DNA of 64,000 nt, taken from a plasmid. This document shows, in pieces, positions 1-14,470 of the stretch (positions are counted from its first letter, which is position 1; each line of letters begins with the position of its first letter). Made by a program: the position numbers and the translations under genes. The stretch lies in sequence record CP113993.1. One strand, 5' to 3'. The notes under the pieces were generated by a model. That model saw nothing but the letters and a program-made list of their open reading frames with translations. It did not search any database and was not told where the DNA came from.

Positions 1-807
1 ATGGCGCAGCAGGGTGATGTGGTCAGTGTAGTACAGGCTTGTCGTTGGGCAGGTTTATCACGGCGTAGTTATTACTACCAGCCCACTAAGGCCAAACCGC
101 GTGTTAATGAGCATTTAGCCACACGTGTGAAGCGCATTATTACTGACTTACCCTATGCAGGCTACCGCACCGTTGCTTGGCTACTGGGTGAGAACAAGAA
201 CACCATTCAGCGTCTGTTCCAGATTAAGGGCTGGCAGGTGCGTAAGCGTCGTAGTGGGGCTCGTCCACGAGTTCAAGCCTTGCCGTCGGTAGCATCACGC
301 CCGAACGAACGCTGGGCAACCGATACAGCACGTGTTTGGTGTGGTCCTATACATCGTTGGTGCGCTTTAACCCTTGTTATAGATTGCCATACGCGAGAGG
401 CTCTGGGTTGGCGATTAAGTCCTAGTGGTAATGCTAAGTCGGCTGAGGCCGCCTTAGAGGAAGCCTTAATCACTCGATATGGTGCGTTAGGCCGAGCACA
501 GGATCCGATCACCCTACGCAGTGATAACGGTCTAGTCTTTACCTCTCGACATTACACGCGTACGGTATACCAATACGGTTTAAAGCAAGAGTTTATTCAG
601 CCGCATACCCCACAGCAAAACGGGATGGTTGAACGCTTAATCCGAACGGTTAAAGAGCAGTGTCTCTGGCTTCATCACTTCAAATCCTTAGATGAGGCCA
701 GACAAACGTTAAGGGCCTGGTTCAAGTATTACAATGAACAACGCCCTCACCAAGCGTTAGGAATGAAAACACCTAACATGGTTTATCAACAACAATTAGT
801 GACTTAA
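1..807 (+). CDS. IS3-family transposase OrfB (integrase core, rve), 5' end cut by window edge
   Basis: The 268-aa ORF has an IS3-type OrfB N-terminus (HTH_21-like), a DDE/rve core and the C-terminal QRPHQALG motif. Confidence 0.8.
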   Translation: MAQQGDVVSVVQACRWAGLSRRSYYYQPTKAKPRVNEHLATRVKRIITDLPYAGYRTVAWLLGENKNTIQRLFQIKGWQVRKRRSGARPRVQALPSVASRPNERWATDTARVWCGPIHRWCALTLVIDCHTREALGWRLSPSGNAKSAEAALEEALITRYGALGRAQDPITLRSDNGLVFTSRHYTRTVYQYGLKQEFIQPHTPQQNGMVERLIRTVKEQCLWLHHFKSLDEARQTLRAWFKYYNEQRPHQALGMKTPNMVYQQQLVT

Positions 808-834
808 GTGTGCAAATTACGCTGGGTCATTACA

Positions 835-968
835 TATTTGCAGTACCAGCGTACGGCCCACAGAATGATGTCACGCTGAAAATGCCGGCCTTTGAATGGG
901 TTCATGTGCAGCTCCATCAGCAAAAGGGGATGATAAGTTTATCACCACCGACTATTTGCAACAGTGCC
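835..968 (-). mobile_element. IS26 fragment (14-bp terminal IR plus first ~110 bp including the tnp26 5' end)
   Basis: The segment is identical to 6120-6252 of the complete IS26 copy and ends in TTTGCAACAGTGCC at 955-968. It does not continue into the rest of IS26. Confidence 0.85.
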
Positions 969-1830
969 AGAAATTCTTGCCACCTGCAACAGCCCCGAAT
1001 ACCAGAGCCTGCCGCCTTCACAGATTGTGCCCCGCTTGGCTGACAAGGGGCTTTACCTGGCAAGCGAATCGACGTTTTATCGGGTCTTGCGCGAGCATGG
1101 GCAAGCTAATCGGCGCGGTCGTGCCCAACCGCCCAGAACAGCCCCCAAGCCGCATGCATGGTTGGCAAGTGCGCCGCTGAAAACCTGGAGCTGGGACATC
1201 ACGTTTTTGCCCACCGCTGTTCGTGGCCAGTTCTACCGCCTGTACATGGTGATGGATGTGTACAGCCGCATGATTGTGGGCTGGGAAATCCACGAGGACG
1301 AACGCGCAGAACATGCTGCCATGCTCATCACCAAAGCATGCCTGCGTCACCGAGTTCGCCAAGACGCGCTGGTGCTACATGCCGACAACGGCTCGCCCAT
1401 GAAAGGCGCCACCATGTTGGCGACCTTGCAGCGTCTGGGCGTTGTGCCGTCGTTCAGTCGGCCGGCGGTGAGTGACGACAACGCCTACTCTGAAGCCCTG
1501 TTCAGAACGCTGAAATACACCCCAGCCTATCCGAAGAAGCCGTTTGCTTCGATCGAGCAGGCACGCCAATGGGTGCTGCGCTTCGTGACTTGGTACAACA
1601 CGGAGCACCGCCACAGCGGCATCAAGTTCGTAACACCCGAGCAGCGACATTATGGGCAGGAGCACGCCATTCTTGAACGCCGCCGCACCGTCTACGAAGC
1701 GGCGAAACAAGCCATGCCTCAGCGTTGGAAGGGCCGCCACACGCGTGACTGGAACCCAATTGGCGAGGTGTGGTTAAACCCGCCGAAAGAAAGTGCCGCC
1801 GACGATCACAAACTCAGCCGCGCCGCATGA
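969..1830 (+). CDS. DDE transposase (rve family, IS3/IS481-like), N-terminally truncated by the IS26 fragment
   Basis: The ORF has HTH and rve domains (WSWDITF...DNGSPM...YNTEHRHS). It opens directly at the IS26 IR with no plausible native start. Confidence 0.7.
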
Positions 1831-1948
1831 AGAAAACGGACATCATTGTTGACAAACACCGTTAACCCCAAAAGCCTGCAAGCCAATCTTTCACTTAGCC
1901 TAAAAGCATCAATGAGATGGCGTACGGCTAATTTTTTGCTGGCAGGGG

Positions 1949-2212
1949 TTACCACTTTTTTGAGACAACATCCTTCAAAGCCTCATTCTCAAGCAGCTTC
2001 TCTGCCAACAGTTTTTTGAGTTTGTTGTTTTCTGACTCAAGTTCACGCAGGCGTTTAGCCTCGTTTACCTCCAGTCCTGCATATTTACTACGCCAGTTAT
2101 AAAAAGTGCCATTGGAGATGCCTAGCCTGCGGCAAATATCACTTACTTTGGCACCTGCCTCGTGTTCTTTAATGACCTTAATAATTTGTTCTTCGGTATA
2201 ACGTTTCTTCAT
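1949..2212 (-). CDS. IS3-family transposase OrfA (HTH), orphaned; its orfB is interrupted by insertion of the 969-1830 element
   Basis: The ORF begins MKKRYTEEQIIKVIKEHEAG with a leucine-zipper C-terminus. An A AAA AAG slippery heptamer sits at its 3' end, and the OrfB frame continues only to about 1880. Confidence 0.75.
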   Translation of the reverse strand: MKKRYTEEQIIKVIKEHEAGAKVSDICRRLGISNGTFYNWRSKYAGLEVNEAKRLRELESENNKLKKLLAEKLLENEALKDVVSKKW

Positions 2213-2285
2213 TTTTGAGACCTCCAACTGCTGTCAGTGTAATGGAAATCTCATCGAAGTTATGGTTCTAATTTAGGGGGAAAGG

Positions 2286-2639
2286 TCACTTACATTTATA
2301 TGCTTTACCAACACCAGTTGTATTTGTTGTGCCCATAGAACCATATGCATTCGTGTTTTTTAAGTCTTGCACATAAACGACATTAGCCCCTAATTTATAG
2401 GCTTCATTCCTTAATTCGTTTCTTGCGCCTATAACTAAATTTTTATTTGATGTTACGTCACCAGTAAACCAATTCCCCTGAGACCCCACAACCTCGCCGA
2501 CGAACTCGCACTTTTCTCAATCAGGAAGATCGTTTACTAACTCAACTCGCTCAGCCCCAGGTATTGTCTGTTTAGCAGCACACGCGGACAGGGTTAGAAC
2601 AAAGGCTACGATAAAGAAAGTATTAATCTTGTTTTTCAT
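2286..2639 (-). pseudogene. Integron cassette ORF encoding a lipoprotein (signal peptide plus LSAC lipobox), interrupted by an in-frame TGA at 2517-2519; its 3' attC is displaced by the IS3-family insertion
   Basis: ATG at 2639 follows a GGGGA RBS. The product reads MKNKINTFFIVAFVLTLSACAAK...LPD, then TGA, then the same frame continues to 2286. Confidence 0.5.
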
Positions 2640-2649
2640 GATTTCCCCT

Positions 2650-2742
2650 AATGAAACATAACGTCGCTATCAATCGCGGAAAAAGGCGTAGTGCGCGAAG
2701 CGAACGAAGCTTTTTGCCGTCGATTGCATAGCTTTGTTAACC
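2650..2742 (-). other. attC (59-be) recombination site of the dfrA cassette
   Basis: GTTAAC overlaps the dfrA stop codon. An imperfect internal palindrome (CGAAGCGAACGAAGCTT) follows, and the site ends near GTTATG. Confidence 0.5.
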
Positions 2743-3219
2743 CTTTTTCCAAATTTGATAGCAATAGTTAATGTTTGAAGTAAAGTGTTGCTCAAAAACA
2801 ACTTCGAAGGTATTTGGAATACTCGGGAAGAAAACATCCCCCTCTGGCTCGATGTCGATCGTCGATAAGTGGAGCGTAGAGGCCATGGGTAATGTTTCTC
2901 GGTAAATTTCTCCGCCACCAGACACTATAACGTGACCGGTGAATTCAGCTAGCCTGTCCATGGCCTCTTCGATTGACTGAAATACAACTACATTGTCATC
3001 ATTTGATGTCCAACCTGAGCGGGTAACGACCGCGTATTTCCTATTGGGGAGTGCGCCCATAGATTCAAACGTCTTGCGACCCACCAGAAGCCACTGATTG
3101 TAGGTCAATGCTTTAAAAAGTAGCTGCTCCCCTTTCGCGGACCAGGGTATGTCTGGACCGCAACCAATCACGCCGTTTTTCGCTTTCGCAGCTATCAATG
3201 ATACTTTCAAGGTTCTCAT
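2737..3219 (-). CDS. dfrA: Trimethoprim-resistant dihydrofolate reductase, DfrA5/14/25/30 group (not dfrA1)
   Basis: The 160-aa protein has DfrA hallmarks: [55 protein letters not shown]...[14 protein letters not shown]...INYCYQIW. Confidence 0.9.
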
Positions 3220-3540
3220 CCTGGGTTAACATTTTATTAGTAAGCATGCTCGTTTTGTCACCCGCTGATGCTTACCGTTAATTAATATAATCACTTGTAT
3301 TAAATAGACTTTCTTTAAAAATATAAGACACTCTGTTATTACAAATCGTGCATGCCGTCTATCCTGCTTGCACGATGCACATTATCTCACCCAAAGAACT
3401 CATAACACTTTAATTTATTTAGCATTAAATTAAAACTCTACCGGTAAACAAGCATCTCTAGGCGTAAAAAACAGGCACTTTTTTAAATCCCAGCTAGAAT
3501 AGGCTGTATAGGCAGACAGTTGCAAGACAAGGAGCGTTTT
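3220..3540 (-). promoter_or_regulatory. attI2 region and cassette promoter of a class 2 integron (GTTAACC crossover near 3224-3230)
   Basis: The region lies between the intI2 start and the first cassette, and a GTTAACC core sits on the minus strand at the cassette boundary. Confidence 0.45.
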
Positions 3541-4518
3541 ATGTCTAACAGTCCATTTTTAAATTCTATACGCACGGATATGCGGCAAAAAGGTTATGCG
3601 CTGAAAACTGAAAAAACTTACCTGCACTGGATTAAGCGTTTTATTCTGTTTCACAAAAAACGTCATCCTCAGACCATGGGCAGTGAAGAGGTCAGGCTGT
3701 TTTTATCCAGCTTAGCAAACAGCAGACATGTAGCCATAAACACGCAGAAAATCGCTTTAAATGCCCTAGCTTTTTTGTACAACAGGTTTTTACAACAGCC
3801 GTTGGGCGATATTGATTATATCCCTGCAAGCAAGCCTAGACGGCTACCCTCTGTTATCTCTGCAAATGAAGTGCAACGCATTTTGCAGGTTATGGATACT
3901 CGCAACCAAGTAATTTTTGCGCTGCTGTATGGTGCAGGTTTGCGCATTAATGAATGCTTGCGTTTGCGGGTTAAAGATTTTGATTTTGATAATGGCTGCA
4001 TCACTGTGCATGACGGTAAGGGTGGGAAAAGCAGAAACAGCCTACTGCCCACGCGCCTAATCCCAGTAATAAAACAACTCATTGAGCAAGCGCGGCTTAT
4101 TCAGCAAGACGACAACTTACAAGGCGTAGGGCCATCGCTGCCTTTTGCTTTAGATCGCAAATACCCTTCTGCTTATCGACAAGCGGCGTGGATGTTTGTC
4201 TTTCCCTCCAGCACGCTCTGCAACCACCCGTATAACGGCAAATTATGCCGCCATCATCTGCATGACTCCGTTGCGCGAAAGGCATTGAAGGCAGCCGTAC
4301 AAAAAGCAGGCATCGTTAGCAAGCGTGTCACTTGTCATACATTTCGTCACTCGTTTGCTACGCATCTATTACAAGCGGGGCGTGATATTCGCACTGTGCA
4401 AGAACTCTTAGGGCATACCGATGTTAAGACCACGCAAATCTATACGCATGTGTTGGGTCAGCATTTTGCCGGCACCACCAGTCCTGCGGATGGACTGATG
4501 CTACTTATCAATCAGTAA
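3541..4518 (+). CDS. intI2: Class 2 integron integrase IntI2 with an uninterrupted reading frame (Gln CAA at codon 179 where Tn7 has TAA)
   Basis: The 325-aa product from MSNSPFLNSIRTDMRQKGY matches IntI2 and carries tyrosine-recombinase motifs (HTFRHSFAT, LLGH...TTQIYTH). Codon 179 (4075-4077) is CAA. Confidence 0.93.
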   Translation: MSNSPFLNSIRTDMRQKGYALKTEKTYLHWIKRFILFHKKRHPQTMGSEEVRLFLSSLANSRHVAINTQKIALNALAFLYNRFLQQPLGDIDYIPASKPRRLPSVISANEVQRILQVMDTRNQVIFALLYGAGLRINECLRLRVKDFDFDNGCITVHDGKGGKSRNSLLPTRLIPVIKQLIEQARLIQQDDNLQGVGPSLPFALDRKYPSAYRQAAWMFVFPSSTLCNHPYNGKLCRHHLHDSVARKALKAAVQKAGIVSKRVTCHTFRHSFATHLLQAGRDIRTVQELLGHTDVKTTQIYTHVLGQHFAGTTSPADGLMLLINQ

Positions 4519-5287
4519 AAGTAGATAAATATCTTTATGTAGCCCTGAGTAGCCCCTGATACTTTTTATGGTGAAAAAGATAAACAATCATAGAGGGGAT
4601 AAATATGAGCCAGTTCTACCATTGTTCAGATAAGTTTAAGCAAGATACTGTTAATCACAGTGACCATTCATGGTCATTACACTTCCTCCAGCTGCCAGAC
4701 AATGCCTAACATAAAAACGCAAAAGCCCAAAAGTCAGAGCTTAGGTGTTCTAGGCGTTTTCTAAGCGCTGAAGAAATACGTCTTACCGTAGATTGCGTGC
4801 GTTTCTGAAGCACATTTTCCTCATACATGGCTTTATCCCAGGCAGCTTCATCAAGCTCTTGGAGTAACAAGCCAGTAATAATGCGACACTTTCGGGTTTG
4901 TAGCGAGCCGCTGGTGAGATCGGAGTTATAGCGGAAAGGGGTCATTTGTAATTATTTGTGGGTGGAGGATAGTTAACTTATTATTGTAGTTGGAAGAGGC
5001 TGCTTTCCAAACATTAGCACATCGTAATGCTTGTTACTGTATATTAATTTATGCTCTTAGCGCATGTTAATGGGCTATTACAATGCATAATGTCTACATC
5101 AAGATAACTGTGGCTTAACACCTGTACAAGCGAAAAAAATCAATCACCTGTCCGGAAATACGGGATCACTGTAATGTGTTGGTGAGGCAGTCTAGGAGGG
5201 GGATTTAATTTGGGATACTGATGAAAGGATTATGATCAGTTGGATATAGGATCGTACTAAGCTGAGCGGCAGGTTAGCTAGATTAGT

Positions 5288-5454
5288 TAACCAGATAAGT
5301 GAAATCTAGTTCCAAACTATTTTGTCATTTTTAATTTTCGCATTAGCTTGCGACGCTACACCCAGTTCCCATCTATTTTGTCACTCTCCCCTAAATAATC
5401 CTTAAAAACCCCATTTTCACCCCTCCCAGTTCCCAACTATTTTGTCCGCCCACA
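5288..5454 (-). mobile_element. Tn7 left end (Tn7-L) with three dispersed 22-bp TnsB-binding repeats; terminus ...CCGCCCACA at 5454
   Basis: The reverse complement reads TGTGGGCGGACAAAATAGTTGGGAACTGGG ... GACAAAATAGATGGGAACTGGG ... GACAAAATAGTTTGGAACTAG, which is the canonical Tn7-L sequence. Confidence 0.85.
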
Positions 5455-6252
5455 TGAGGCAGCCTTTTGTCTTATTCAAAGGCCTTACATTTCAAAAACT
5501 CTGCTTACCAGGCGCATTTCGCCCAGGGGATCACCATAATAAAATGCTGAGGCCTGGCCTTTGCGTAGTGCACGCATCACCTCAATACCTTTGATGGTGG
5601 CGTAAGCCGTCTTCATGGATTTAAATCCCAGCGTGGCGCCGATTATCCGTTTCAGTTTGCCATGATCGCATTCAATCACGTTGTTCCGGTACTTAATCTG
5701 TCGGTGTTCAACGTCAGACGGGCACCGGCCTTCGCGTTTGAGCAGAGCAAGCGCGCGACCATAGGCGGGCGCTTTATCCGTGTTGATGAATCGCGGGATC
5801 TGCCACTTCTTCACGTTGTTGAGGATTTTACCCAGAAACCGGTATGCAGCTTTGCTGTTACGACGGGAGGAGAGATAAAAATCGACAGTGCGGCCCCGGC
5901 TGTCGACGGCCCGGTACAGATACGCCCAGCGGCCATTGACCTTCACGTAGGTTTCATCCATGTGCCACGGGCAAAGATCGGAAGGGTTACGCCAGTACCA
6001 GCGCAGCCGTTTTTCCATTTCAGGCGCATAACGCTGAACCCAGCGGTAAATCGTGGAGTGATCGACATTCACTCCGCGTTCAGCCAGCATCTCCTGCAGC
6101 TCACGGTAACTGATGCCGTATTTGCAGTACCAGCGTACGGCCCACAGAATGATGTCACGCTGAAAATGCCGGCCTTTGAATGGGTTCATGTGCAGCTCCA
6201 TCAGCAAAAGGGGATGATAAGTTTATCACCACCGACTATTTGCAACAGTGCC
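5455..6252 (-). mobile_element. IS26, lacking the outer 22 bp of one terminus (798 of 820 bp), directly abutting the Tn7-L terminus
   Basis: The IR TTTGCAACAGTGCC sits at 6239-6252. The internal sequence and Tnp26 are intact. The other end starts at TGAGGCAGCCTTTTGTC without GGCACTGTTGCAAAGTTAGCGA. Confidence 0.92.
5485..6189 (-). CDS. tnpA: IS26 transposase Tnp26
   Basis: The product reads MNPFKGRHFQRDIILWAVRWYCKYGISYRELQEML...LVSRVFEM, a full-length Tnp26 match. Confidence 0.95.
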   Translation of the reverse strand: MNPFKGRHFQRDIILWAVRWYCKYGISYRELQEMLAERGVNVDHSTIYRWVQRYAPEMEKRLRWYWRNPSDLCPWHMDETYVKVNGRWAYLYRAVDSRGRTVDFYLSSRRNSKAAYRFLGKILNNVKKWQIPRFINTDKAPAYGRALALLKREGRCPSDVEHRQIKYRNNVIECDHGKLKRIIGATLGFKSMKTAYATIKGIEVMRALRKGQASAFYYGDPLGEMRLVSRVFEM

Positions 6253-6423
6253 CACAATACTATAAAGTCAGGAGTCAAACTCAAACTCGTTTGGCTTGAA
6301 CGTGGCCATACCAAAGCAGACATTGTTGCAGATGTACTTGCCACAGCAGGTTTCCCTGATTTTGGGGATCAATTGAAGCTGCTGGCTACCAGCAGCCTGC
6401 AAAAAACACATAAGCTGGCCTGA
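6253..6423 (+). pseudogene. 3' remnant of an unknown gene truncated by IS26
   Basis: The open frame runs from the IS26 end and finishes ...GHTKADIVADVLATAGFPDFGDQLKLLATSSLQKTHKLA, with no upstream start. Confidence 0.3.
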
Positions 6424-6481
6424 AAGGAATACTTCACAATGAATATCATTGTGTTGGTAACCTGCTGTTATCGTGATGAAA

Positions 6482-7099
6482 TTACCGCTCAATTTTTTCG
6501 GTTGACGCGGTCTGTTCCTGCATGGTTTTCATCTTTAGCTTTTGTTTTTCCCTTACTGCCAGCCAGCGTCTGGCATTCTGCGCATCGCATTCTGATACCT
6601 GACCTGCTGGTAGTCCATCCAGTCCATAACGAGGGATACCTGCGACAGCAGTACGCAGCAGATATACCTGTCGGGTGGTGATGCAGGATATTGCACAGGA
6701 CCATTCATCCAGTGTCAGTTCTGTCTCAGGGTGTTCTGTCAGGAATGCGGCAAAATCATTGGTTATGCCAATTTTCAGTGGAAGAAATCCCCCGCTTTCT
6801 GCGCGAAGATGGGGAAACAGAGACTTAACTTTTTCCACGCAATTGTGAGTAAATTCATGAGTCCAATGAGGCTGGCGTGGAAAACGGCGTCTTTTCCTTT
6901 TTTTCTTACTGGCAGAAGCTTCAGGGGGATGAGTATCGACGGCAGGAGAACTGCTTCCCACAGATACTGGATCTTCCATCTTTACCGTCTCTGAACGTGC
7001 GATAACACCTGTTTTTTCAGATAAGGAAGGGGGTAAAAGAGTGCGACGTTTTTTCACCATAATGATGGGTGTTTTCTTTTCTTCCTGATATTTCCCCAT
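6482..7099 (-). CDS. ProQ/FinO-domain RNA-binding protein (FopA-like plasmid RNA chaperone)
   Basis: The C-terminal half aligns with the FinO domain (PLKIGITNDF...LTLDEWSCAISCITTRQVYLLRTAVAGIPRYGLDGLPAGQVSE). It has a basic Lys/Arg-rich linker and a GAGG RBS. Confidence 0.6.
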   Translation of the reverse strand: MGKYQEEKKTPIIMVKKRRTLLPPSLSEKTGVIARSETVKMEDPVSVGSSSPAVDTHPPEASASKKKRKRRRFPRQPHWTHEFTHNCVEKVKSLFPHLRAESGGFLPLKIGITNDFAAFLTEHPETELTLDEWSCAISCITTRQVYLLRTAVAGIPRYGLDGLPAGQVSECDAQNARRWLAVREKQKLKMKTMQEQTASTEKIER

Positions 7100-7293
7100 A
7101 AAAACCTCTACGATGTGTTCTTATATAATAATATATATCATATTTTCACAATTAACATAATATCTTCGTTAAGAAAATAACAGAACAAAATTTGTTGTTT
7201 TTTTATGACAGGCATGAAATGAGCCAGCATAATTATATTAATCATTATCCCAAATGAGTTTTTGTATTTGCTCATTCGGGATGGTTGGATATT

Positions 7294-8850
7294 TTAAGTT
7301 ATATCTACTGTATCATTCTCAGGTAATCGTTCCATTAAATCAGAAACTACGGGCTGTAACCAGTCAGTGACTTCACTTACATACTGATCCCATTCGGGAT
7401 GCCTGGAGGCCAGATCCATCACTCGTGTTAACCCGGACGGACGATCAATGCCCAATTTAGTTAAAATGTTCGAGATATAATTATGAGCATCAAGTTCAAC
7501 TCTGATATCCCTTGCTGCTTCTATTATTTCTAAATATTCTCCACCCAATCCGTCCAGTGGGACATTTGTAATAAGATAATGAATGTATTGTTCAGGCTTA
7601 ACTCCATTTGGGAGATTAAATTGTTTTACTTTTCCTTCCGCTGCCGCTTTTAACTCATAAGTTCGTGATTCTGTGCCGGTGAAAACTTTATCAAGAGCAG
7701 CTTTCTTTTCATTTTCTGTGGAGTATTTATCGCCATCAAGAATATAAAGTTTATCAGATAGATTATCTCCACGAATAAGTGTACTGGCAAGTAGAGTGAA
7801 TGCGTTTGAAGCTGCGCCAAATTTAAATATTTTCACATATCTGCTGGCCTTAAGTGAAGAACATATTTTATTTATTATTGCAACAGCAAGATCATCTTCC
7901 ACATATATTTCAATGGGAGTTGTTGATTTACCTGTTAATCTGTTTATAGCATCAGGTTTTGTTTCTTCAAATGAATAACTACGGCCTTGAATGTTTACGA
8001 CGTGTCTTATATTTATCTTGTCTGATAAAGTGGTTACCATTTCTCTATGGGTAGTGAAGATGATTTGTTTATTTTTATCTTCGGCATGAGTTGATATGAC
8101 GTCTATTAACTTTTTCAATGCTTCGTCATGCAACAGCAAATCTAATTCATCGATTAATATTAAGGCGTTCTTGTCCGCTTTTAATATTGTTTCCAGAATT
8201 AAAAATATCTTTTGCTCTCCTGCGCTCATACTTAATGATGAGTAGGCCAGTCCCTCTGACTCAACTCCAATCAATATTTTTCCATTGGGTTGTTGATGTT
8301 GATTGAAACTTGTATATGGTTTATTAAGTATATAGGAGGCGTAATGAAGAATGTTTGTTATTAAATCATTACTGACACTGCTGGTTTCATACTGAATATT
8401 ATTCTTTTTTTCTGATTCTATTATAGGAACACATTTATCAATGCCAAGATAGTAAACTTCTCTTAAAGGACGACGAGCATAAATCTGAATCCATCGTGAG
8501 CCTCGAACATCAGCTTTTCCATAATTTTTTAATTCATTTTCAATCATTACAACATCTTTACGATAAGTTAAATTTACAATGAAGTCACTGCCGTTCCATT
8601 CAGCATGTGGACTGCGTGGAAAAAAATGCATTAACCGATGGTCTTCACCGGGGAAACCTTTTTCAGGCATGTATATGCTTGCTATAGCATGGAGTATTGT
8701 TGATTTTCCGCTTCCATTTGGACCTAAAATTGCGGTTAACGCATGAGGTTTAAAAATAATCTCGTTTAATCCATTTATACATTTTAGTTTGTTAATTTTA
8801 ATGGAGTTCAAGACTTGACCAGTAATGGTTTTTTTCTTTTTTTCTGCCAT
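7294..8850 (-). CDS. OLD-family (overcoming lysogenization defect) ATP-dependent nuclease: N-terminal ABC-type ATPase plus C-terminal Toprim-like domain
   Basis: Walker A is GPNGSGKST, and an ABC signature / Walker B is SAGEQK...LILIDELD. The C-terminus carries a Toprim-like Glu (IYVEDD) and a DxD (LYILDGDKY). The gene is AT-rich (about 33% GC) with an AGGA RBS. Confidence 0.65.
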   Translation of the reverse strand: MAEKKKKTITGQVLNSIKINKLKCINGLNEIIFKPHALTAILGPNGSGKSTILHAIASIYMPEKGFPGEDHRLMHFFPRSPHAEWNGSDFIVNLTYRKDVVMIENELKNYGKADVRGSRWIQIYARRPLREVYYLGIDKCVPIIESEKKNNIQYETSSVSNDLITNILHYASYILNKPYTSFNQHQQPNGKILIGVESEGLAYSSLSMSAGEQKIFLILETILKADKNALILIDELDLLLHDEALKKLIDVISTHAEDKNKQIIFTTHREMVTTLSDKINIRHVVNIQGRSYSFEETKPDAINRLTGKSTTPIEIYVEDDLAVAIINKICSSLKASRYVKIFKFGAASNAFTLLASTLIRGDNLSDKLYILDGDKYSTENEKKAALDKVFTGTESRTYELKAAAEGKVKQFNLPNGVKPEQYIHYLITNVPLDGLGGEYLEIIEAARDIRVELDAHNYISNILTKLGIDRPSGLTRVMDLASRHPEWDQYVSEVTDWLQPVVSDLMERLPENDTVDIT

Positions 8851-9114
8851 TTTCAAATCCTAGCATTATGTTGGGGGAATTCACCATGTAATTCAGAAAC
8901 ATATAACTGTGAACAGGGGATATATCAAATCCTTTTAATATTCTATTTGGCACAGTATTCTACATCAGGCCTCTTTTATGCTACAGACTTTTTGAGATGT
9001 CTGTAATTTTAGACTTAATGTTATGACTGATCATATCTCCTATCCACTGGTGGCGCAGGAAAGTTAACCGGCTGCCACCATGGGATGATGTGTAAACCGT
9101 GCACAGGCGTGTTC

Positions 9115-9705
9115 TTACGGAGCGGCACTTTCATTTATCTGTACGCGAACCTCCATTCCTGCATCGTGACAGGCCTGCAGCCACTGTGCCACTTCCAGCG
9201 GATCGCCCTCCCGGCGTACCACCCTGCCTTCTTTATTCCATAACTGCAGACAGGTGCTGCCGTCGAGACGCACCACAAAATCCCCACGGCAGGCCTGATA
9301 CGTTATGCCGTTCAGCTGCACCGCCAGATCAGTGGCAGAAGTGCCGTCTGCGGGCAGACCTGCTGCCGGGACCAGCGGCAGTACGACGACTTCTGCCGCA
9401 CGCTGTTCTGCCCGGAGGCGGTCCTGTTCTGCCAGCAGCAGAGGCTGTGCCACGGCCCGGCCGGCGTCCGTCAGCTCCACTGCCAGCTGCAGGTTCGGAG
9501 CGCGCAGGGTACGCAGCCAGCCGGCGTCCTCCAGACGACGGCAGGAGGCGCGCAGGTTTGGCCCGTAGACCGGGGCTTCCCCGCTTCGCTCCAGCACCCG
9601 TTCTATGTCCCGCGTCAGCACGGGTCCTGGCCGTTTTTCATCAAGGGCAGCCAGCACAATCAGCACTCTCCGCTGCAGTGGCGACGGTCGGCGGCTCTGG
9701 GTCAT
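9115..9705 (-). CDS. Hypothetical protein with an N-terminal winged-helix-like DNA-binding region; GC-rich (about 65%)
   Basis: The 196-aa ORF begins LQRRVLIVLAALDEK...PVLTRDIERVL...LEDAGWLRT. It is overlap-coupled (ATGA) to the upstream 85-aa ORF, and its GC content is much higher than its flanks. Confidence 0.5.
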   Translation of the reverse strand: MTQSRRPSPLQRRVLIVLAALDEKRPGPVLTRDIERVLERSGEAPVYGPNLRASCRRLEDAGWLRTLRAPNLQLAVELTDAGRAVAQPLLLAEQDRLRAEQRAAEVVVLPLVPAAGLPADGTSATDLAVQLNGITYQACRGDFVVRLDGSTCLQLWNKEGRVVRREGDPLEVAQWLQACHDAGMEVRVQINESAAP

Positions 9706-13691: not shown

Positions 13692-14470
13692 TGACCGGAC
13701 TCGTTACCTTGGGGCAGCTGCCAGGAACGGCAGCTCAGTTGCCTGTGTCCATCGACTATCCGGCGGCGCTGGCCCTGCGCCAGATGGCTCTCGTTCAGGA
13801 CGAACTGCCCAGATACCTGCTGGCTCCGGAAGTGAGCGCCCTGCTCCACTATGTTCCCGATCTGCACCGCAAGATGCTGCTGGCAACACTGTGGAATACG
13901 GGCGCGCGTATTAATGAGGCACTGGCGCTGACTCGGAGTGATTTTTCGCTCACGCCTCCATATCCGTTTGTGCAGCTGGCCACTCTGAAGCAGCGGACCG
14001 AAAAAGCAGCCAGGACGGCAGGAAGAATGCCAGCCGGTCAGCAGACTCACCGGCTGGTTCCGCTCTCCGACGCCTGGTACGTCAGCCAGCTGCAGACGAT
14101 GGTGGCCACACTGAAAATCCCCATGGAACGGCGTAATAAACGAACAGGCAGGACAGAGAAAGCGCGGATCTGGGAAGTGACGGACAGAACGGTCAGGACC
14201 TGGATTGCGGAGGCGGTTGCCGCCGCTGCCGCTGATGGTGTGACGTTCTCTGTCCCGGTCACGCCACATACGTTCCGCCATTCCTATGCGATGCATATGC
14301 TGTATGCCGGTATACCGCTGAAGGTCCTGCAGAGTCTGATGGGGCATAAGTCCATCAGCTCAACGGAGGTCTACACGAAGGTGTTTGCACTGGATGTGGC
14401 TGCACGGCACCGAGTGCAGTTTTCGATGCCTGAGTCCGATGCGGTGTCTATGCTCAAAAGAATTCCATAA
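13691..14470 (+). CDS. Tyrosine site-specific recombinase (plasmid resolvase, ResD/Xer-like)
   Basis: The product has an R...HxxR...Y catalytic region (HTFRHSYAMHMLYAG...LMGHKSISSTEVYTKV) and is 259 aa. Confidence 0.85.
   Translation: MTGLVTLGQLPGTAAQLPVSIDYPAALALRQMALVQDELPRYLLAPEVSALLHYVPDLHRKMLLATLWNTGARINEALALTRSDFSLTPPYPFVQLATLKQRTEKAARTAGRMPAGQQTHRLVPLSDAWYVSQLQTMVATLKIPMERRNKRTGRTEKARIWEVTDRTVRTWIAEAVAAAAADGVTFSVPVTPHTFRHSYAMHMLYAGIPLKVLQSLMGHKSISSTEVYTKVFALDVAARHRVQFSMPESDAVSMLKRIP

What the first reader, a model, noticed from the sequence alone, without database searches (positions are those of the whole stretch)
3541..4518. Class 2 integron integrase intI2 without the usual internal stop (CAA-Gln at codon 179)
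In Tn7-borne class 2 integrons, codon 179 of intI2 is an ochre TAA and the integrase is inactive. Here codon 179 (nt 4075-4077) reads CAA, and the frame is open for all 325 codons with the conserved catalytic C-terminus intact. A potentially active IntI2 is uncommon, and it sits next to a non-canonical cassette array.
Basis: partly seen in the sequence, partly recalled or inferred. Interest (0 to 1): 0.7.

Follow-up and report, generated by a model that had tools for sequence, protein, structure and literature searches.

The report
Full-length intI2 on a pESI plasmid
The window carries an uninterrupted class 2 integron integrase gene, but it is the already described "functional class 2 integron" allele fixed on the epidemic pESI megaplasmid of Salmonella Infantis; it retains the original glutamine codon rather than having repaired the Tn7 stop codon, and cassette gain and loss among sister plasmids suggest that it works.

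Summary
ORF 3541-4518 (+) is open for 325 codons and codon 179 (4075-4077) is CAA.

- The gene differs from Tn7 intI2 at 7 positions, not 1: R15 and V124 (silent), T127A, A176V, stop179Q, H206R and N293T. Two more changes lie in the cassette promoters.
- Relatives 78-89% identical share A/S127, Q or R at 179, R206 and T/S293. The allele therefore keeps ancestral states and is not a revertant.
- It is identical in 75 complete Salmonella pESI-like plasmids, and the exact protein is indexed in 3081 blocks of public assemblies.
- Published typing matches the pESI integron 100% to EU780012, the "functional class 2 integron" of Márquez 2008.
- Both promoter variants that Jové 2017 found only with full-length intI2 are present.

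One extra result. The window lacks the 603-bp lsp cassette present in most pESI plasmids, and two Korean plasmids carry that cassette moved to attI2. Every junction lies exactly at G|TT. This is natural evidence of integrase-mediated excision and re-insertion, although IntI1 acting in trans is not excluded.

Verdict: real, already known, low to moderate interest.

The parts
3541..4518 (+). intI2, full-length class 2 integron integrase gene (325 codons plus TAA)
   Evidence: TIGR02249 410 bits. 2A3V E 2e-91. 100% identical to intI2 of pESI-like plasmids.
4075..4077 (+). Codon 179 = CAA (Gln), where Tn7 has TAA
   Evidence: Gln, or Arg in a minority, at the aligned position in the relatives 78-89% identical.
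4067..4067 (+). A176V substitution (GCA>GTA), private to the pESI allele; a private silent change lies at 3912
   Evidence: Other full-length alleles and close relatives have Ala. The position is variable among more distant IntI proteins.
3472..3500 (+). PintI2 promoter, CAGGCA-N17-TAGAAT, followed by RBS AAGGAG upstream of the ATG
   Evidence: Hexamers as mapped by Jové et al. 2017 and quoted in PMC8858760.
3230..3540 (-). attI2 region with the cassette promoters. Pc2D 3525-3496, Pc2A-V2 3435-3407 (TAAAGT), Pc2B-V2 3326-3299 (TTATAT), Pc2C 3261-3231. Recombination point AAAATG|TTAACC between 3230 and 3229.
   Evidence: Differs from Tn7 only at 3324 and 3408, which are exactly the V2 variants of Jové 2017.
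2662..3229 (-). dfrA14 gene cassette (568 bp). CDS 3210-2740 with stop codon 2739-2737 (the mechanical ORF starts at 3219); attC about 2736-2662.
   Evidence: NF000330 299 bits. AMRFinder dfrA14 100% in sister plasmids. The attC bottom strand folds at -21 kcal/mol (z -3.6) with two extrahelical bases, T and C, spaced by 6 nt.
2655..2665 (-). Junction GACG|TTATGTT, where the 603-bp lsp (signal peptidase II) cassette of reference pESI plasmids is precisely absent
   Evidence: Only 2 of 75 PLSDB pESI plasmids carry this junction. CP193648.1 has the same array as the window.
2289..2661 (-). DUF4156 lipoprotein cassette with an in-frame TGA at 2519-2517. Its 3' end and attC are cut off by an IS3-family element.
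   Evidence: Pfam DUF4156 93.9 bits when the TGA is read through. IS homology begins at about 2288-2290.
1949..2288 (-). End of the IS3-family element that caps the array. Its terminal TGA supplies the stop of the DUF4156 ORF. orfA is 2227-1949; further nested IS3/IS26 fragments lie upstream (1-1830).
4519..5454 (.). Tn7 left arm with an intact Tn7-L terminus (TTGTCCGCCCACA, 5442-5454). It contains a 79-aa BrxA-like fragment ORF (4945-4706, minus strand). An IS26 copy follows (transposase ORF 5485-6207, minus strand).
   Evidence: Annotation of sister plasmids. No tns genes were found anywhere in the 64-kb window, tested with the tnsC end, tnsD and tnsE held in L002.

Best explanation
This is the class 2 integron of a pESI-like IncFIB megaplasmid of Salmonella Infantis. 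It is a decayed left arm of a Tn7-like transposon: Tn7-L end, intI2, attI2, cassettes. An IS3-family element cuts it on one side and IS26 abuts it on the other. Its intI2 belongs to the rare 'functional class 2 integron' lineage that never acquired the Tn7 ochre codon. It keeps the ancestral residues Gln179, Ala127, Arg206 and Thr293, and carries one private change, A176V. Shown: the gene is full length. It has all tyrosine-recombinase catalytic residues and the conserved Trp, Pro and His-His residues of the integron-integrase-specific segment. PintI2 and the RBS are intact. It is paired with the weakened cassette promoters Pc2A-V2 and Pc2B-V2. Inferred: the protein is made constitutively (PintI2 is SOS-independent according to Jové 2017). 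It catalyses attC x attC excision and attI2 x attC integration at the G|TT point of folded bottom-strand attC sites. The window itself records one such event, precise loss of the 603-bp lsp cassette between dfrA14 and the DUF4156 cassette. Two Korean sister plasmids record excision plus re-insertion of lsp at attI2.
For: - Open frame and CAA at codon 179.
- Family assignment and catalytic residues.
- Seven differences from Tn7 intI2.
- The same A127/Q179/R206/T293 states occur in other full-length alleles from P. rettgeri and K. pneumoniae. Relatives at 78-89% identity carry the same or conservative states (A/S127, Q or R at 179, R206, T/S293).
- The only apparent counter-example, the 92%-identical allele with TAA in pRHB16-C11_3, is a mosaic. 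Its last 678 nt are identical to Tn7.
- Pc2A-V2 and Pc2B-V2 are present. They are reported only with full-length intI2 (PMC5559693).
- pESI isolates match EU780012 (dfrA14, lsp) at 100% over 2386/2386 bp (PMC10272548). EU780012 is the Márquez 2008 'functional class 2 integron'.
- A glutamate replacement of the stop in the Tn7 allele (IntI2*179E) gives an active enzyme (Hansson 2002).
- All five full-length IntI2 variants in INTEGRALL were reported active (Wang 2021, second-hand via PMC8858760).
- Three array states, each with exact G|TT junctions: attI2-dfrA14-lsp-DUF4156, attI2-lsp-dfrA14-DUF4156 and attI2-dfrA14-DUF4156.
- The attC sites fold as expected.
Against: - No activity assay of this exact allele could be read here. 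The Márquez 2008 and Wang 2021 papers are not held, and EU780012 could not be aligned directly.
- The effect of A176V is untested.
- The array is static in 73 of 75 PLSDB pESI plasmids, so activity is low or rarely selected.
- pESI plasmids also carry a class 1 integron (PMC9990980, PMC10272548). IntI1 can use attI2 and attC sites (PMC3053210), so the observed rearrangements do not prove IntI2 activity.
- The two lsp-first plasmids come from one study and carry sequencing-error-like differences: dfrA14 at 98.7% and uncalled genes.
Confidence: 0.85

Rival explanations
1. The intI2 ORF is intact but contributes nothing. It may be poorly active because of A176V or poorly expressed. The lsp cassette loss and relocation seen in the pESI lineage were catalysed in trans by IntI1 of the class 1 integron that pESI also carries.
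For: pESI-like plasmids are reported to carry both intI1 and intI2. Larouche and Roy 2011 found that IntI1 recognises attI2 and excises many attC-flanked cassettes. The array is unchanged in 73 of 75 plasmids.
Against: No intI1 lies in the 64-kb window. All catalytic and attC-binding residues are conserved. Position 176 is variable among active-type IntI proteins, and some have Val. Full-length IntI2 variants are reported active. In the Larouche and Roy tests, IntI2*179E was the better enzyme for attI2 substrates.
Confidence: 0.12
2. The allele is a recent back-mutation (TAA to CAA) of the ordinary Tn7 pseudogene. This is what the first reader expected and how several recent papers describe functional class 2 integrons.
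For: Only one base separates TAA from CAA. Recent clinical papers describe the change as a mutation of the stop codon.
Against: Seven differences separate it from Tn7 intI2, not one, and two more lie in linked promoters. Five of the seven are shared by other full-length alleles. The four amino-acid states among those five match the nearest relatives (84-89% identical), and relatives near 80% carry the same or conservative states. No E. coli complete genome carries a single-step revertant.
Confidence: 0.02
3. The CAA, or the missing lsp cassette, is a sequencing or assembly artefact.
For: Some related long-read assemblies show indel-type errors.
Against: The gene sequence is identical in 75 independent complete plasmids and in thousands of assemblies. 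The lsp-less array recurs in CP193648.1. Its junction lies exactly at the G|TT crossover point, which an assembler would not produce by chance.
Confidence: 0.01

Closest known systems
Class 2 integron of E. coli UTI isolate, GenBank EU780012 (Márquez et al. 2008, 'functional class 2 integron'; listed as In14 in IntFinder)
   Same: Full-length intI2, Pc2A-V2 and Pc2B-V2 promoters, and dfrA14 as first cassette. pESI isolates are reported 100% identical over 2386/2386 bp.
   Different: The window lacks the second cassette, lsp. Host and context differ: a Salmonella Infantis megaplasmid, capped by IS3 and abutted by IS26. Identity to EU780012 rests on published typing, not on an alignment made here.
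Tn7 class 2 integron, intI2* pseudogene with dfrA1-sat2-aadA1 (Hansson et al. 2002)
   Same: Same gene (99.3% nt), same attI2, PintI2 and Tn7-L arm.
   Different: Tn7 has TAA179 together with T127, H206 and N293, the stronger Pc2A/Pc2B promoters, a fixed array and tnsABCDE. Here codon 179 is Gln, the promoters are the V2 variants, the cassettes differ, and no tns genes lie in the window.
Other full-length intI2 alleles: Providencia/Proteus/Klebsiella (for example WP_063962748.1 on pCHS4.1-2), Barlow and Gobius 2006, Wei et al. 2014
   Same: They share the silent G at nt 45 and A127, Q179, R206 and T293, and belong to the same 'functional' category.
   Different: Three nt differences from the Providencia allele: A176V and a silent change at codon 124, both private to pESI, plus a silent change at codon 28 private to the Providencia/Klebsiella allele. 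Those alleles sit in Tn7-like units with tnsE and dfrA1.
VchIntIA (IntI4) of Vibrio cholerae, PDB 2A3V
   Same: Same fold family. Catalytic R-K-H-R-H-Y residues and attC-binding residues W217, P230 and H238/H239 are aligned and conserved.
   Different: A distant homologue from a sedentary chromosomal integron. W157 of VchIntIA is His in IntI2.

Membership tests
Integron integrase (IntI, TIGR02249) | Tyrosine-recombinase catalytic residues R-K-H-R-H-Y | tested here: met
   R135, K160, H266, R269, H292 and Y301 align with those of VchIntIA 2A3V.
Integron integrase (IntI, TIGR02249) | Full-length match that includes the IntI-specific extra segment between the catalytic patches | tested here: met
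   TIGR02249 positions 1-315 of 315, 410 bits against a cutoff of 265. W217, P230 and H238/H239 are conserved.
Integron integrase (IntI, TIGR02249) | Adjacent attI site, divergent cassette promoter, and cassettes bounded by attC sites | tested here: met
   attI2 with Pc2 promoters. dfrA14 cassette with a folding attC that has extrahelical bases spaced by 6 nt. G|TT junctions.
Integron integrase (IntI, TIGR02249) | Demonstrated site-specific recombination activity | not testable with these tools
   Only indirect evidence: three array states with precise junctions in sister plasmids, and published assays on related or identical alleles.
Class 2 integron (Tn7-associated intI2) | Near-identity to Tn7 intI2 and attI2 | tested here: met
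   971 of 978 nt identical. Two differences in the 300 nt of the attI2 region compared.
Class 2 integron (Tn7-associated intI2) | Embedded in a Tn7 transposition module (Tn7-L end and tnsABCDE) | tested here: inconclusive
   The Tn7-L arm and terminus are present (5442-5454). No tns genes lie in the 64-kb window (the tnsC end, tnsD and tnsE were tested; tnsA and tnsB were not), and the array is cut by an IS3-family element. It is a decayed remnant.
Class 2 integron (Tn7-associated intI2) | Ochre stop at codon 179 (typical of the common form, not defining) | tested here: not met
   CAA at 4075-4077.
'Functional class 2 integron' category (Jové et al. 2017) | Full-length intI2 together with Pc2A-V2 (TAAAGT) and Pc2B-V2 (TTATAT) | tested here: met
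   (3435-3407 and 3326-3299). Definition in PMC5559693.
EU780012-type integron (intI2-dfrA14-lsp) | Cassette array dfrA14 then lsp | tested here: not met
   dfrA14 is present, but lsp is absent from the array and from the whole window. Sister pESI plasmids have it.
EU780012-type integron (intI2-dfrA14-lsp) | Sequence identity of intI2 to EU780012 | not testable with these tools
   EU780012 is in none of the searchable collections. Published IntFinder results give 100% over 2386/2386 bp for pESI isolates.

The most novel reading that the evidence does not exclude
The IntI2 of the globally epidemic pESI megaplasmid is active in the field. It has excised the lsp cassette (the window and CP193648.1) and re-inserted it at attI2 (two Korean plasmids). 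pESI would then be by far the most abundant carrier of a working, SOS-independent class 2 integron, able to capture new resistance cassettes. [quoted passage not shown] I found no paper in the searchable library that notes either the full-length status of pESI intI2 or these cassette movements.
Probability: 0.55. Interest if true: 0.45.

Novelty: already known. Interest (0 to 1): 0.28.

Why it matters
pESI-like plasmids drive the worldwide spread of multidrug-resistant Salmonella Infantis in poultry and people. Their class 2 integron encodes a complete integrase, not the dead Tn7 copy, so this plasmid lineage can in principle gain, lose and reorder resistance cassettes. The lsp-less and lsp-first arrays indicate that this happens, although rarely.

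The finding also corrects two common statements. Full-length intI2 is not rare once pESI is counted. It is also the ancestral form and not a back-mutation.

For the scan itself the result is mostly negative. The element and its allele have been in the literature since 2008, and pESI's intI2-dfrA14 integron is routinely reported.

Tried and rejected
1. Single-base revertant model. Rejected because of the 7 differences and the outgroup polarity.
2. A 92%-identical intI2 with TAA179 in E. coli pRHB16-C11_3 first seemed to make the stop ancestral. A difference profile showed a mosaic: the first 300 nt carry 88 differences and the last 678 nt are identical to Tn7. It was rejected as an outgroup.
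3. The annotated 'signal peptidase II' CDS of sister plasmids did not translate from the window at the expected offset. This led to the discovery that the 603-bp cassette is missing, not to a frameshift.
4. I looked for lsp elsewhere in the window and found none.
5. I looked for intI1 and class 1 integron markers in the window and found none. There is only a weak tyrosine-recombinase hit at 14258-14404.
6. I tried to read Márquez 2008, Hansson 2002 and Zhu 2023. None is held.
7. I tried to polarise the promoter variants with a chromosomal relative. It was informative for Pc2B (the relative has the Tn7 state, so V2 is derived) but not for Pc2A.
8. Structure prediction and fold search were not run. 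Sequence homology to a solved IntI is unambiguous.

Full report
**1. Observation**

The ORF at 3541-4518 (+) is open for 325 codons and ends in TAA. Codon 179 lies at 4075-4077 and reads CAA. The product matches NCBIfam TIGR02249 'integron integrase' over the whole profile (410 bits, cutoff 265). It also matches Pfam Phage_int_SAM_4 plus Phage_integrase and the crystallised V. cholerae IntIA (2A3V, E 2e-91, residues 4-317).

From that alignment the catalytic residues R135, K160, H266, R269, H292 and Y301 are all present. So are the residues that align with VchIntIA W219, P232 and H240/H241, namely W217, P230 and H238/H239. That those VchIntIA residues contact the extrahelical attC bases is from my own recollection of the 2A3V structure.

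**2. Comparison with Tn7**

I compared the gene with a chromosomal Tn7 of E. coli, whose intI2 is annotated 'internal stop'. It differs at 7 positions, not 1:
- 3585, R15, silent
- 3912, V124, silent
- 3919, T127A
- 4067, A176V
- 4075, stop179Q
- 4157, H206R
- 4418, N293T

In the attI2 region there are two further differences, at 3324 and 3408. Read on the cassette strand, they turn the Pc2B -35 element TTGTAT into TTATAT and the Pc2A -10 element TAAAAT into TAAAGT. These are exactly the Pc2B-V2 and Pc2A-V2 variants. Jové et al. 2017 found them only in class 2 integrons with a complete intI2 and showed that they halve cassette expression (PMC5559693). PintI2 (CAGGCA-N17-TAGAAT, 3472-3500) and the RBS are intact. 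According to the same paper this promoter is constitutive and not under SOS control.

**3. Where the window comes from and how common the allele is**

The gene is 100% identical in many complete Salmonella plasmids of 195-339 kb (IncFIB, MPF_I). These are the pESI-like megaplasmids of serovar Infantis.

A 61-nt probe across codons 176-179 cannot seed on the Tn7 allele. In PLSDB it finds three groups:
- 75 plasmids at 100%, all Salmonella
- 6 plasmids with one mismatch (P. rettgeri and K. pneumoniae). Of the two inspected, both carry A176/Q179 in a full-length gene next to dfrA1 and tnsE.
- 3 K. pneumoniae plasmids at 93.4%. In the one inspected, the copy is truncated by IS5.

So 81 of 193 plasmids with intI2 carry a full-length gene, and 75 of those are pESI. 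In contrast, none of 5426 complete E. coli genomes has a Q179-type allele, although 111 carry intI2. The exact protein is indexed in 3081 blocks of the public assembly collection, and its 90% cluster holds 707 sequences.

**4. Ancestral or revertant?**

Five of the seven differences from Tn7 are shared by the other full-length alleles: G at nt 45, A127, Q179, R206 and T293. Proteins 78-89% identical, from metagenomes and from Marinospirillum and Pseudomonadaceae genomes, mostly have A or S at 127, A at 176, Q (a minority R) at 179, R at 206 and T or S at 293. VchIntIA also has Thr after the conserved His.

The Tn7 states T127, stop179, H206 and N293 are therefore derived. This allele keeps the ancestral ones. 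Only A176V and a silent change are private to it.

An apparent counter-example was a 92%-identical intI2 with TAA179 on pRHB16-C11_3. It is a mosaic whose last 678 nt are identical to Tn7.

One 88%-identical relative, P0005, sits in a chromosomal setting in metagenomes (MesX, methionine synthase, GreA, cytochrome c maturation genes). Its attI region aligns with attI2 at 71%. At the Pc2B -35 site it has the Tn7 base, so Pc2B-V2 is derived. This fits the Jové model, in which lineages that keep an active integrase weaken Pc.

**5. Anatomy**

On the minus strand the order is as follows.
- attI2 (3540-3230), with the crossover point at AAAATG|TTAACC
- the dfrA14 cassette, 3229-2662, 568 bp
- a DUF4156 lipoprotein cassette, 2661-2289. 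Its ORF has an in-frame TGA at 2519-2517, and its stop codon is supplied by the end of an IS3-family element. The array is therefore capped, and the last cassette has lost its attC.

The dfrA14 attC bottom strand folds at -21 kcal/mol (z -3.6) and better than the top strand. It has an R-box stem and two extrahelical bases, T and C, spaced by 6 nt.

Downstream of intI2, the Tn7 left arm with its terminus is intact (to 5454) and abuts IS26. No tns genes occur in the window. This is an immobile remnant of a Tn7-like element.

**6. The missing cassette**

Reference pESI plasmids carry attI2-dfrA14-lsp-DUF4156. The window lacks exactly the 603-bp lsp (signal peptidase II) cassette.

The junctions read as follows:

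| Sequence | Junctions |
|---|---|
| Reference | ...GCGACG\|TTAGTTG...(lsp)...CAGCG\|TTATGTTTC... |
| Window | ...GCGACG\|TTATGTTTC... |
| Two Korean plasmids | AAAATG\|TTAGTTG...(lsp)...CAGCG\|TTAACCCAGG...(dfrA14)...GCGACG\|TTATGTTTC |

In the two Korean plasmids (CP148861.1 from a dog, CP148887.1 from a human) the lsp cassette has moved to the first position at attI2.

The window's array recurs in CP193648.1, which is colinear with window 68-9517 at 99.97%. Only these two Korean plasmids among the 75 PLSDB pESI plasmids have the dfrA14|DUF4156 junction. All 75 keep the DUF4156/IS3 segment.

Every junction lies at G|TT, and only 5 bp of homology (CGTTA) is shared between the sites. Integron-integrase recombination is thus the parsimonious cause, not homologous recombination or misassembly.

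**7. Which integrase?**

The window has no intI1. pESI plasmids do carry a class 1 integron elsewhere. Larouche and Roy 2011 found that IntI1 can use attI2, whereas IntI2*179E cannot use attI1. In their tests IntI2*179E handled attI2 substrates better.

IntI2 is therefore the likelier catalyst, but IntI1 in trans is not excluded. Activity of this exact allele is asserted by the title of Márquez 2008. Second-hand, Wang 2021 reports all five full-length IntI2 variants in INTEGRALL as active. I could read neither paper.

**8. What is known**

IntFinder-based studies report the pESI class 2 integron as 100% identical over 2386/2386 bp to EU780012 ('dfrA14, lsp'). Jové 2017 lists EU780012 among the six integrons with a complete intI2 and the V2 promoters. 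pESI papers routinely mention 'intI2 associated with dfrA14'.

None of the papers I could search comments on the integrase being full length or on cassette movement in pESI. Recent clinical papers still call functional class 2 integrons 'extremely rare' products of a TAA-to-CAA mutation.

**9. Verdict**

The feature is real and correctly located, but it is an already described allele in an already described, very common plasmid. The modest additions from this work are:
- the polarity of the substitutions (ancestral, not revertant)
- the count showing that pESI dominates full-length intI2 records
- three array states with exact cassette junctions that indicate integrase activity in the field

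Interest 0.28; novelty 'already known'.

Noticed in passing
window 2655-2665; L001 10513-11115; L009 9618-10232: The 603-bp lsp (signal peptidase II) cassette of reference pESI plasmids is precisely absent from the window. In two Korean S. Infantis plasmids (CP148861.1, CP148887.1) it sits at attI2 ahead of dfrA14. All junctions lie at G|TT.
   Followed up: yes
window 2286-2639 (minus strand): The DUF4156 lipoprotein cassette ORF has an in-frame TGA at 2519-2517, and its final stop is supplied by the terminal TGA of an IS3-family element. The 512-bp segment 2150-2661 is at least 99% identical (99.8-100% in the records listed) in all 75 PLSDB pESI plasmids, and the cassette was not found in other plasmids.
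   Followed up: partly
window 4706-4945 (minus strand): A 79-aa ORF inside the Tn7 left arm matches only the first 72 positions of the 184-position BrxA (BREX) profile. The same fragment is annotated next to intI2 in ordinary Tn7.
   Followed up: no
L007 (CP057740.1, E. coli pRHB16-C11_3) 4965-5942: A mosaic intI2. The first 300 nt carry 88 differences from Tn7 and the remaining 678 nt are identical to it, including TAA179. It sits next to an unusual array (phytanoyl-CoA dioxygenase family gene, then aadA1).
   Followed up: partly
L021-L024 (metagenome contigs encoding P0005): An integron integrase 88% identical to IntI2 lies in a conserved chromosomal neighbourhood (MesX, methionine synthase, GreA, cytochrome c maturation genes). 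Its attI region aligns with attI2 at 71%. It may be a relative of the source lineage of class 2 integrons.
   Followed up: partly
window 14258-14404: A weak tyrosine-recombinase match (45% over 49 aa to the IntI2 C-terminus). It corresponds to the 259-aa 'site-specific integrase' annotated upstream of parA in sister plasmid pSZL30.1. It is probably a plasmid resolvase-type recombinase unrelated to the integron.
   Followed up: no
window 1-2288 and 5455-6253: Nested IS3-family fragments and IS26 copies bracket the integron remnant. A 134-bp stretch of IS26 (6119-6252) recurs at 835-968, between the IS3-family ORFs. This is the region that pESI papers describe as the most variable part of the plasmid.
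   Followed up: no
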